A DNA stretch of 10,606 nt from a virus. A model generated the notes under the pieces. It saw only the letters and a program-made list of their open reading frames with translations. It ran no database searches and was not told where the DNA came from. Location: the UHGV virus genome UHGV-0360087; one strand, 5' to 3'. How positions within the stretch are numbered: the first letter of the stretch is position 1; each line of letters opens with the position of its first letter. Made by a program: the position numbers and the translations under genes. Of the stretch, positions 858-1,142 are shown one piece after another.

Positions 858-1142
858 TTACGATGCTATTTTCGCCGGACATTGCGAATTCCCTGCATGT
901 GGACGGTTTTTGTAAACAGAGCAATATGCGTTTTCTCCGGGGGGGGGGCCGGCAAGAGCGCCACATCGGGGATTTTTCTGATTGGTGCCGCGCATACAGC
1001 GATGAAAAGGAGATATTTGCTCAGTGAGACTGACCGAAACCTTTCCGCCAGCATCGTCAGCTTCTGCCCAGTAAAAAGAGACGCGGAAAATGCACAACAG
1101 GCACCACACGTCATGCATGGATTCAGATTGCTCATAATTCAC
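858..1142 (-). pseudogene. YkgJ/UPF0153-like CxxCxxCC zinc- or iron-chelating domain gene, split across two reading frames
   Basis: Frame A (ATG 1135 to 866) begins [16 protein letters not shown], the CxxCxxCC hallmark. Frame B (1142 to 858) carries the remaining cysteines ([22 protein letters not shown]). One extra T in the T4 run at 1087-1090 would fuse them into a 92-aa protein with 8 cysteines. The family assignment is from memory and was not searched. Confidence 0.45.
939..948. repeat. G10 homopolymer (C10 on the coding strand, encoding Pro-Pro-Pro)
   Basis: Ten consecutive G read directly at 939-948, inside the YkgJ-like ORFs. Confidence 0.95.

What the first reader, a model, noticed from the sequence alone, without database searches (positions are those of the whole stretch)
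858..1142. Frameshifted 8-cysteine CxxCxxCC (YkgJ-like) gene carrying a G10 tract
Two minus-strand ORFs offset by one nucleotide together encode a complete 8-Cys domain. Frame A starts [16 protein letters not shown]; frame B holds the rest ([12 protein letters not shown]...HRCM...[24 protein letters not shown]...SQCP). A single extra T at the T4 run 1087-1090 would restore a 92-aa protein. Downstream, a C10 run (G10 on plus, 939-948) encodes PPP. Homopolymers this long are rare in enterobacterial genomes and prone to slipped-strand mispairing. The gene is therefore either a recent pseudogene, a sequencing or assembly indel, or a locus whose frame is switchable.
Basis: partly seen in the sequence, partly recalled or inferred. 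Interest (0 to 1): 0.6.

Follow-up and report, generated by a model that had tools for sequence, protein, structure and literature searches.

The report
Decayed prophage ykgJ copy, unstable poly-C
This is a dead copy of the E. coli ykgJ gene carried at the end of a lambda-like prophage; it has three frame-disrupting changes, not one, and a run of ten C's whose length drifts between related strains, so it is an ordinary pseudogene, not a switchable gene or a sequencing error.

Summary
The sequence features are real: two overlapping minus-strand ORFs, a T4 run at 1087-1090 and a C10/G10 run at 939-948. The repaired translation hits Pfam PF03692 above its cut-off.

One copy of a CCGT CCGT direct repeat is deleted at about 901-906. 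This puts the true C-terminus (STCREF...GFPKI, two conserved Cys) in a third frame that ends at 808. Adding one T would therefore not restore the protein.

T4 and the CCGT deletion are shared by all 27 other copies of this allele type that I examined. These include the Sanger genome 55989 and ten draft genomes with an identical integrase at argW. They are inherited lesions, not read errors. NCBI's PGAP pipeline already annotates all eight such copies I fetched from complete genomes as "YkgJ family cysteine cluster protein, frameshifted".

The poly-C run arose from GGC ACC CCC by an A-to-C change. It takes every length from C6 to C11 in the dead lineage. In the otherwise intact sister lineage it is mostly C7, which is in frame. 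No tract length can rescue the window's copy.

The segment 824-1263 derives from the chromosomal ykgJ / ykgJ-ecpE region, a capture already described for prophages (PMC8112680). Low interest.

The parts
808..1135 (-). Whole ykgJ-like pseudogene (328 nt; intact homologues are 330 or 333 nt), from the native ATG at 1135-1133 to the native TGA stop at 810-808.
   Evidence: Three-frame translation. Alignment to intact homologues and to K-12 ykgJ. Pfam PF03692 hit on the repaired translation. The eight equivalent genes fetched from complete genomes are annotated 'YkgJ family cysteine cluster protein, frameshifted' (for O104:H4, which keeps both CCGT copies).
1088..1135 (-). Frame-A segment: codons 1-16, [16 protein letters not shown], with the CxxCxxCC motif. 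Identical to K-12 YkgJ residues 1-16.
1087..1090 (-). Lesion 1: T4 run (A4 on plus) where K-12 ykgJ and every homologue that is intact at this point have at least one more T (T5, or T6 where the next base is also T). A 1-nt deletion that shifts the frame after codon 16.
   Evidence: Alignments. State table: T4 in all 28 window-type copies, T5 or T6 in intact ones.
901..1086 (-). Frame-B segment: (F)[11 protein letters not shown]...HRCM...[24 protein letters not shown], the middle of the YkgJ domain with three conserved Cys.
939..948 (-). C10 tract (G10 on plus) encoding Pro-Pro-Pro. It is in frame with both of its flanks. It derives from GGC ACC CCC GG (Gly-Thr-Pro-Gly) by an A-to-C change that made C7, followed by slippage.
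   Evidence: Allele series: L062 GGAACTCCGGG, L061 GGCACCCCCGG, L058 C7, L057 C10. Dead-lineage lengths C6-C11. 0 of 200 shuffles contain G10.
901..906 (-). Lesion 2: CCGTCC where intact homologues have CCGTCCGTCC (K-12: TCGATCGTCC). A 4-nt deletion of one direct-repeat copy that shifts the frame after ...YKNRP.
   Evidence: Alignments. State table.
808..900 (-). Frame-C segment: [30 protein letters not shown] plus stop, the native C-terminus with two conserved Cys.
   Evidence: ORF 808..966. Frame 2. Alignment. The Pfam match extends to profile position 84 of 85 only when this part is added.
1136..1263 (-). Upstream non-coding segment, 96% identical to the K-12 ykgJ-ecpE intergenic region. 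Homology to K-12 and to many other prophage copies stops at 1263.
   Evidence: Nakamura et al. 2021 (PMC8112680) describe prophage sequences derived from this intergenic region.
45..665 (+). Context: DUF4376 tail-fibre-assembly-like gene. It is the constant neighbour of the ykgJ copy in all related prophages, whatever their integration site.
   Evidence: Pfam PF14301, E=6.3e-17. Annotations.
1356..2549 (-). Context: IntS-type tyrosine integrase of the same prophage, about 94-97% DNA identity to the integrases of HK633, HK620 and Sf6.
2675..2749 (-). Context: tRNA-Arg(CCT), argW, the attachment site of the prophage. Homology to free phage genomes ends at 2689.

Best explanation
Window 808-1135 (minus strand) is an inherited, non-functional pseudogene of a prophage-borne copy of ykgJ (PF03692, a Cys-cluster protein of unknown function).

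The copy sits in the accessory region between the tail-fibre-assembly gene and the integrase of a lambdoid prophage inserted at argW. The segment 824-1263 comes from the bacterial ykgJ / ykgJ-ecpE region. I infer that a phage picked it up, probably by imprecise excision, and that its 5' part was later refreshed by recombination with the chromosomal gene.

Two replication-slippage deletions broke the reading frame: T5->T4, and loss of one CCGT of a tandem CCGTCCGT. Both were then inherited. A Thr-to-Pro codon change (ACC->CCC) fused two short C runs into C7. That homopolymer now expands and contracts by slipped-strand mispairing, and it happens to be C10 here. With no selection acting on a dead gene, the tract length drifts.

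Shown: the lesions, their sharing among relatives, the tract polymorphism, the family membership, and the homology to the chromosomal region.

Inferred: the capture mechanism, the order of events, and neutrality.
For: Family and lesions
- The repaired translation hits PF03692 above its cut-off. It is 82% identical to K-12 YkgJ and 90% identical to an intact E. coli prophage-type protein.
- Three length differences from intact homologues are located by alignment.

Sharing among relatives
- T4 plus a single CCGT is present in all 27 other window-type copies: L001, L002, L004, L005, L027-L030, L032-L034, L037-L039, L063-L065, L067-L076.
- L075 differs from the window by 2 substitutions and the tract (C9) over 2.6 kb.
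- PGAP marks these genes 'frameshifted'.

Tract lengths
- Dead lineage: C6 x4, C7 x3, C8 x12, CCCTCCCC x1, C9 x5, C10 x2 (including the window), C11 x1. All three frame classes occur.
- Otherwise intact lineage (T5, two CCGT) in 5,426 complete genomes: C7 x18, C10 x1 (all in frame; the two alleles fetched are annotated as intact genes), C8 x2 (frameshifted).

Origin
- Window 824-1263 aligns to K-12 ykgJ plus 128 bp upstream.
- Identity is 97.1% over 1060-1263 but 76.4% over 824-1059.
- Published work traces prophage sequences to the ykgJ/ecpE region (PMC8112680).
Against: - No read-level data are available, so the exact C count in the window (10 rather than 9 or 11) is unverified.
- Neutrality of the tract is inferred from a small, phylogenetically non-independent sample. 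Seven of the C8 copies are near-identical argW prophages.
- Expression was not tested. The consensus scan found no convincing promoter for the gene, but such scans are weak evidence.
- In C6 and C9 relatives the three shifts sum to zero. This gives an uninterrupted ORF from the native ATG to the native stop with a scrambled middle. A new function for that product cannot be formally excluded.
Confidence: 0.9

Rival explanations
1. Sequencing or assembly artefact: the gene is intact in the organism, and the frameshifts are homopolymer miscalls in this assembly.
For: Lesion 1 and the C10 tract are in homopolymers, which are the error-prone contexts. The nearest relative, L075, differs by exactly one C in the tract, which is the size of a typical miscall.
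Against: - T4 and the single CCGT copy recur in 27 other assemblies from different projects and platforms, including the Sanger genome 55989.
- The CCGT loss is a 4-nt repeat-unit deletion, not a homopolymer miscall.
- The other large ORFs scanned in the window (two integrases, Dam, Gp157, RecT, the S24 repressor, YdaT) gave normal family matches with no sign of frameshifting.
- C10 is in frame with its flanks, so an error there is not what breaks the gene.
Confidence: 0.03
2. Phase-variable (contingency) gene: slippage in the poly-C tract switches expression of the prophage YkgJ on and off.
For: The tract is hypervariable between close relatives, C6 to C11. In the otherwise intact sister lineage, C7 and C10 give a full-length protein and C8 gives a frameshift. 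A switch is therefore mechanically possible there.
Against: - In the window's lineage two other fixed lesions break the frame on both sides of the tract. No tract length restores YkgJ.
- C10 is already in frame with its flanks.
- In the intact lineage 19 of 21 complete-genome copies are in frame and 18 are the same C7. This looks like a mostly stable allele with occasional loss, not frequent switching.
- Within-population switching was not tested.
Confidence: 0.04
3. Recoding: the ribosome or RNA polymerase slips at the T4 run, and again near CCGTCC, to make full-length YkgJ from the broken gene. This could be programmed frameshifting or transcriptional slippage.
For: The lesions are conserved in many copies. 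Alternative frames are free of stops across the gene, so frame A reads 89 codons.
Against: - Conservation here is among copies that are at least about 96% identical, so it reflects descent, not selection.
- Two independent corrective shifts would be needed.
- GCA TTT TCC has no X XXY YYZ slippery heptamer, and T4 is far shorter than the A/T runs of about 9 that are known to support transcriptional slippage (background knowledge).
- Sister alleles encode the protein in a single frame.
Confidence: 0.01
4. New chimeric protein: the shifted frames now encode a novel product, either the 89-aa frame-A ORF here or the 107-108-aa ATG-to-native-stop ORF in C6/C9 relatives.
For: Open frames exist. The native start region (GGTGA five bases before the ATG, my reading of the sequence) is retained.
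Against: - All three tract frame classes occur in the dead lineage: 9 copies with C6 or C9, 5 with C7 or C10, and 14 with C8, C11 or CCCTCCCC. The ORF-preserving lengths are not preferred.
- The window's own allele (C10) is not the ORF-restoring one.
- The 89-aa product was not found as a called gene in the large collection, and the frame-A and frame-B products gave no NCBIfam hit.
Confidence: 0.02

Closest known systems
E. coli K-12 YkgJ (b0288; UPF0153 / Pfam PF03692 CxxCxxCC 'putative zinc- or iron-chelating domain')
   Same: The repaired translation is 82% identical over the full length and has the same nine conserved Cys. DNA homology covers the gene plus 128 bp upstream, and is 97% over the 5' part.
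   Different: The window copy is prophage-borne rather than at the ykgJ-ecpE locus. It is broken by T5->T4 and a 4-nt deletion, and it has Pro-Pro-Pro from C10 where K-12 has Thr-Pro. The function of YkgJ itself is unknown; a K-12 deletion mutant filaments in biofilms (PMC8743551).
Prophage 'YkgJ family cysteine cluster protein, frameshifted' pseudogenes annotated by PGAP (e.g. EC55989_RS29525 in E. coli 55989; FVP48_RS10710; I5Z76_RS08985)
   Same: Same gene, same position after the DUF4376 tail-fibre-assembly gene, and the same T4 and single-CCGT lesions, at 97-99% DNA identity.
   Different: Only the poly-C length differs (C6, C3TC4, C11 against C10 here), along with the prophage's integration site and integrase.
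Intact prophage YkgJ alleles (WP_032169753.1 with C7; WP_198798526.1 with C10; P0001-P0003 with Thr-Pro and no tract)
   Same: Same prophage position. The C7 and C10 alleles are about 93% and 96% identical in DNA to the window; P0001-P0003 are 86-90% identical in protein. The C10 allele encodes the same [11 protein letters not shown] peptide.
   Different: They have T5 and two CCGT copies, and so a single open frame of 109-110 codons.
ykgJ/ecpE-derived 'attB-in-PP_2' segments of Stx and other lambdoid prophages (Nakamura et al. 2021, PMC8112680)
   Same: Chromosomal ykgJ-region DNA carried inside lambdoid prophages. Stx phage records match the first ~94 nt of the window gene at 84%.
   Different: Those segments are mostly the intergenic part plus a short 5' gene stub, and they were described as attachment sites for other prophages. 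The window keeps a near full-length, decayed gene. Whether 1136-1263 contains a usable attB was not tested.
Homopolymer contingency loci of Neisseria, Haemophilus and Campylobacter (poly-G/C tracts inside ORFs; background knowledge)
   Same: A long G/C homopolymer inside a coding region whose length differs between close relatives.
   Different: Here the gene is already dead for other reasons, so tract changes have no on/off consequence. Switching within a population has not been shown.

Membership tests
Pfam PF03692 (CxxCxxCC / YkgJ family) | HMM score above the gathering threshold | tested here: met
The repaired 109-aa translation scores 34 bits (cut-off 23), E=4.8e-08, profile positions 1-84 of 85.
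Pfam PF03692 (CxxCxxCC / YkgJ family) | N-terminal CxxCxxCC motif and the further conserved Cys | tested here: met
   C7, C10, C13, C14, C47, C58, C72, C82 and C98 of the repaired translation align with invariant or nearly invariant columns. They are split over three reading frames in the DNA.
Pfam PF03692 (CxxCxxCC / YkgJ family) | A single uninterrupted reading frame (a functional member) | tested here: not met
   Frame changes at 1087-1090 and at 901-906. It is a pseudogene of the family, not a functional member.
NCBIfam curated families | Hit to a curated NCBIfam model | tested here: not met
   No NCBIfam model matched the repaired or the as-is translations at E<=0.01. This fails to add support but is not evidence against the Pfam assignment.
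Slipped-strand phase-variable (contingency) gene | A simple-sequence tract inside the ORF that varies in length between close relatives | tested here: met
   C6, C7, C8, C9, C10 and C11 occur among copies at least 96% identical. L075 is 99.9% identical over 2.6 kb and has C9.
Slipped-strand phase-variable (contingency) gene | Some tract lengths give the full-length functional protein (an ON state exists) | tested here: not met
   In the window's lineage T4 and the CCGT deletion break the frame on both sides of the tract whatever its length. An ON state exists only in the sister lineage with T5 and two CCGT copies.
Slipped-strand phase-variable (contingency) gene | Reversible switching within a clonal population | not testable with these tools
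   Needs read pile-ups or amplicon sequencing of cultures.
Programmed ribosomal frameshift / transcriptional slippage gene | A slippery motif at the shift site (X XXY YYZ, or an A/T run of about 9 or more) | tested here: not met
   The sequence at shift 1 is GCA TTT TCC GCG (T4). At shift 2 it is AAC CGT CCA CAT. Neither fits the motifs (motif definitions from background knowledge).
Sequencing artefact | The lesion is absent from independent assemblies of the same allele | tested here: not met
   Both frame-breaking lesions are present in all 27 other window-type copies.

The most novel reading that the evidence does not exclude
The poly-C tract may be a true slipped-strand ON/OFF switch for the prophage YkgJ protein in the otherwise intact E. 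coli lineage. C7 and C10 would be ON and C8 OFF. It arose de novo from a single Thr-to-Pro codon change. The window would then show the decayed end-state of that locus. Homopolymer phase variation of this kind is, to my knowledge, uncommon in E. coli.
Probability: 0.07. Interest if true: 0.45.

Novelty: already known. Interest (0 to 1): 0.15.

Why it matters
It matters little for biology. The result tidies an annotation: the gene runs 808-1135, carries three lesions, and belongs to the YkgJ family. It also shows that neither resequencing nor a one-base fix would yield an intact gene.

Two small points have some general value:
- It documents stepwise birth and drift of a long G/C homopolymer in E. 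coli: GGAACTCCGGG, then GGCACCCCCGG, then C7, then C6-C11.
- The tract could serve as a fast-evolving marker for telling apart otherwise near-identical prophages.

The link to the ykgJ-ecpE region fits published work on chromosomal segments carried by prophages.

Tried and rejected
- NCBIfam scan of the repaired and as-is translations: no hits. The PGAP name evidently does not come from an NCBIfam HMM.
- Exact-sequence look-ups of the 89-aa, 94-aa and 86-aa as-is ORFs and of the GTG-start integrase: nothing on record. Only the ATG-start integrase (385 aa) was found, and it gave ten useful loci.
- Search of isolated phage genomes for the gene: no full-length copy. There was only a ~94-nt 5' stub in Stx and related phages and a ~105-nt 3' piece in phage 1720a-02. 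Tract lengths therefore could not be surveyed in cultured phages.
- Promoter/terminator scan of 700-1400: one weak promoter-like site downstream of the gene and no terminator, no better than shuffles.
- Rfam scan of the whole window: only the tRNA. The sRNA EcsR2 lies near K-12 ykgJ, but in the yagU-ykgJ spacer, which is not part of the captured segment.
- Recoding and a new chimeric ORF were considered and rejected (see rivals).
- Fisher test of in-frame against out-of-frame tract lengths, made before the ten loci were added. Intact lineage 20 in frame and 2 out; dead lineage 5 in frame and 13 out; p about 5e-05. I report it only as suggestive, because the copies are not phylogenetically independent.
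- No structure prediction was run. It would not bear on the question.

Full report
**1. What is in the sequence**

On the minus strand, an ATG at 1135 opens [16 protein letters not shown] and then continues out of register for 89 codons (ORF 866..1135). A second frame (ORF 858..1142) holds [12 protein letters not shown]...HRCM...[24 protein letters not shown] followed by [13 protein letters not shown]. The T4 run is at 1087-1090 and the C10 run (G10 on plus) is at 939-948. G10 is the longest homopolymer in the window. It does not occur in any of 200 dinucleotide-preserving shuffles.

Intact homologues show that this is the native C-terminus.

Pfam agrees. A translation that also joins the third frame matches positions 1-84 of 85 (34 bits, E=4.8e-08, cut-off 23). 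The gene is therefore 808-1135 and its parts lie in three frames.

**2. The three differences from intact genes**

I aligned the window with K-12 ykgJ (L007:5854-6183) and with intact prophage alleles.

- Lesion (i): T5->T4 at 1087-1090, a loss of 1 nt.
- Lesion (ii): the tract. Intact alleles read GGA ACT CCG GGT or GGC ACC CCC GGT (Gly-Thr-Pro-Gly). An A-to-C change gives GGC CCC CCC GG (C7, Gly-Pro-Pro-Gly, still in frame). The window has C10, which is C7 plus 3 nt. It is in frame with both flanks and adds one Pro.
- Lesion (iii): CCGTCCGTCC->CCGTCC at 901-906, a 4-nt loss of one direct-repeat copy. K-12 has TCGATCGTCC, the same length as the two-copy form, so the deletion is the derived state.

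The lengths add up: 330 - 1 + 3 - 4 = 328 nt, which equals 808..1135. Intact proteins conserve nine Cys: five invariant and four nearly invariant across 15 sequences. Two of them (C82 in TCREF, C98 in EACNR) lie in the third frame.

**3. Are the lesions real?**

In complete E. coli genomes the closest copies all carry T4 and a single CCGT, and PGAP flags them 'frameshifted': NMBU-W12E19, cM8a, TOE17, 55989, JKHS016, 15A and JE86-ST02. O104:H4 has T4 plus an internal deletion.

IMG/VR prophage contigs add ten more copies with the same two lesions: L027-L030, L032-L034 and L037-L039.

A look-up of the window's integrase (ATG start, 385 aa) found it in 107 blocks of the assembly collection. The ten loci returned are draft genomes with the same argW-int-ykgJ'-DUF4376 arrangement, 99.0-99.9% identical to the window over 2.6 kb. 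All have T4 and a single CCGT.

In total, 27 other assemblies of this allele type share both lesions, and one of them is the Sanger-sequenced 55989. The other large ORFs I scanned in the window gave normal family matches with no sign of homopolymer damage. The two frame-breaking lesions are therefore inherited mutations, not assembly errors.

**4. The tract**

Within the T4/single-CCGT lineage the tract lengths are:

| Length | Copies | Loci |
|---|---|---|
| C6 | 4 | L002, L004, L038, L039 |
| C7 | 3 | L033, L034, L065 |
| C8 | 12 | L027-L030, L064, L067-L073 |
| CCCTCCCC | 1 | L001 |
| C9 | 5 | L037, L063, L074-L076 |
| C10 | 2 | window, L032 |
| C11 | 1 | L005 |

L075 differs from the window by two substitutions and one C over 2.6 kb. 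All three frame classes occur.

No complete E. coli genome (5,426 searched) carries the window's exact allele.

The sister lineage that keeps T5 and both CCGT copies is about 93% identical to the window. In complete genomes it has C7 x18 and C10 x1, all in frame, and C8 x2, which are frameshifted. The two in-frame alleles I fetched, WP_032169753.1 (C7) and WP_198798526.1 (C10), are annotated as normal genes. The C8 copies are SHP24 and JNEC-KY204.

So the tract is truly unstable. Its length appears constrained where the gene is otherwise intact and unconstrained where it is dead. An earlier tally gave Fisher p about 5e-05. This is only suggestive, because the copies are not independent.

**5. 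Can the window's copy switch?**

No. C10 is already in frame with its flanks. The frame is broken upstream at T4 and downstream at CCGTCC, so no tract length yields YkgJ.

In C6 and C9 relatives the three shifts sum to zero. An ORF then runs from the native ATG to the native stop, but about 60 central codons are scrambled and the central conserved Cys are lost. Those lengths are not preferred.

Recoding would need two separate events at sites that lack slippery motifs.

**6. Where the gene comes from**

The ykgJ copy always follows the DUF4376 tail-fibre-assembly gene. This holds whether the prophage sits next to potB, tRNA-Ser/hyaA, btsS, yecD or argW. It is therefore phage cargo in the region between the tail genes and the att/int module.

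Window 824-1263 aligns with K-12 ykgJ plus 128 bp of the ykgJ-ecpE spacer. Identity is 97.1% over 1060-1263 and 76.4% over 824-1059. The intact sister lineage has an unrelated upstream region. The window allele is thus a recombinant whose 5' part matches the E. coli chromosome.

Homology of several other prophage copies to the window stops at exactly 1263. Phage HK633 shares 1158-2689 with the window.

Nakamura et al. [quoted passage not shown] These can act as attachment sites for other prophages ('attB-in-PP_2'). Stx phage records match only the first ~94 nt of the window gene. Capture by imprecise excision is my inference.

**7. Function of the family**

It is unknown. PF03692 is a putative Zn/Fe-chelating Cys-cluster domain. 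A TraDIS study linked K-12 ykgJ to biofilm fitness, and its deletion mutant filamented (PMC8743551). Nothing suggests a role for the broken prophage copy.

**8. Verdict**

The object is an ordinary, already-annotated kind of prophage pseudogene. The one mildly interesting aspect is the de novo homopolymer and its length drift. Interest 0.15; confidence in the explanation 0.9.

Noticed in passing
window 1356-2549 (-), 2675-2749 (-), 2924-4114 (+): Two tyrosine-integrase genes face away from each other on either side of tRNA-Arg(CCT) argW. The left one is the IntS type of the ykgJ'-bearing prophage. The right one leads into a second lambdoid early region (Dam, Gp157, RecT, S24 repressor, YdaT). 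In ten relatives with the identical left integrase, the other side of argW is yfdC-mlaA with no second prophage.
   Followed up: partly
window 824-1263: Sharp change of identity to K-12 inside the gene: 97.1% over 1060-1263 (5' coding end plus upstream spacer) against 76.4% over 824-1059. This implies recombination between the prophage copy and chromosomal ykgJ. Homology of K-12 and of several prophage copies to the window ends at exactly 1263, a likely old att or mosaic junction.
   Followed up: partly
L002, L004, L038, L039 (C6); L037, L063 (C9): In relatives with C6 or C9 the three shifts cancel. An uninterrupted 107-108-codon ORF runs from the native ATG to the native stop with a scrambled middle. 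PGAP still calls them frameshifted.
   Followed up: partly
L003 (E. coli O104:H4) and L035 (IMG/VR contig): Other secondary changes re-open the frame after T4. O104:H4 has an internal deletion that gives an 86-codon ORF ending at the native stop. L035 has C10 plus an extra C (GAAAACCGC) and both CCGT copies. T4 with two CCGT copies (L003, L035) and T5 with one (protein P0049) both exist, so the lesions have been reassorted or have recurred.
   Followed up: partly
L059 (E. coli 95-3322) and 10 other complete-genome records (H194-H204), seven of them from mouse isolates: An independent frameshift occurs at the precursor of the tract: GGCACCCC-GG, a C5 to C4 slip. Even the short run is a slippage hotspot.
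   Followed up: partly
window 668-675: An A8 run lies immediately after the stop codon of the DUF4376 gene. It is the second-longest homopolymer in the window. Its variation among relatives was not examined.
   Followed up: no
window 816-1163 (+): A 115-codon stop-free ORF lies antisense to the ykgJ pseudogene. It is most likely a mirror effect of the coding region and was not examined further.
   Followed up: no
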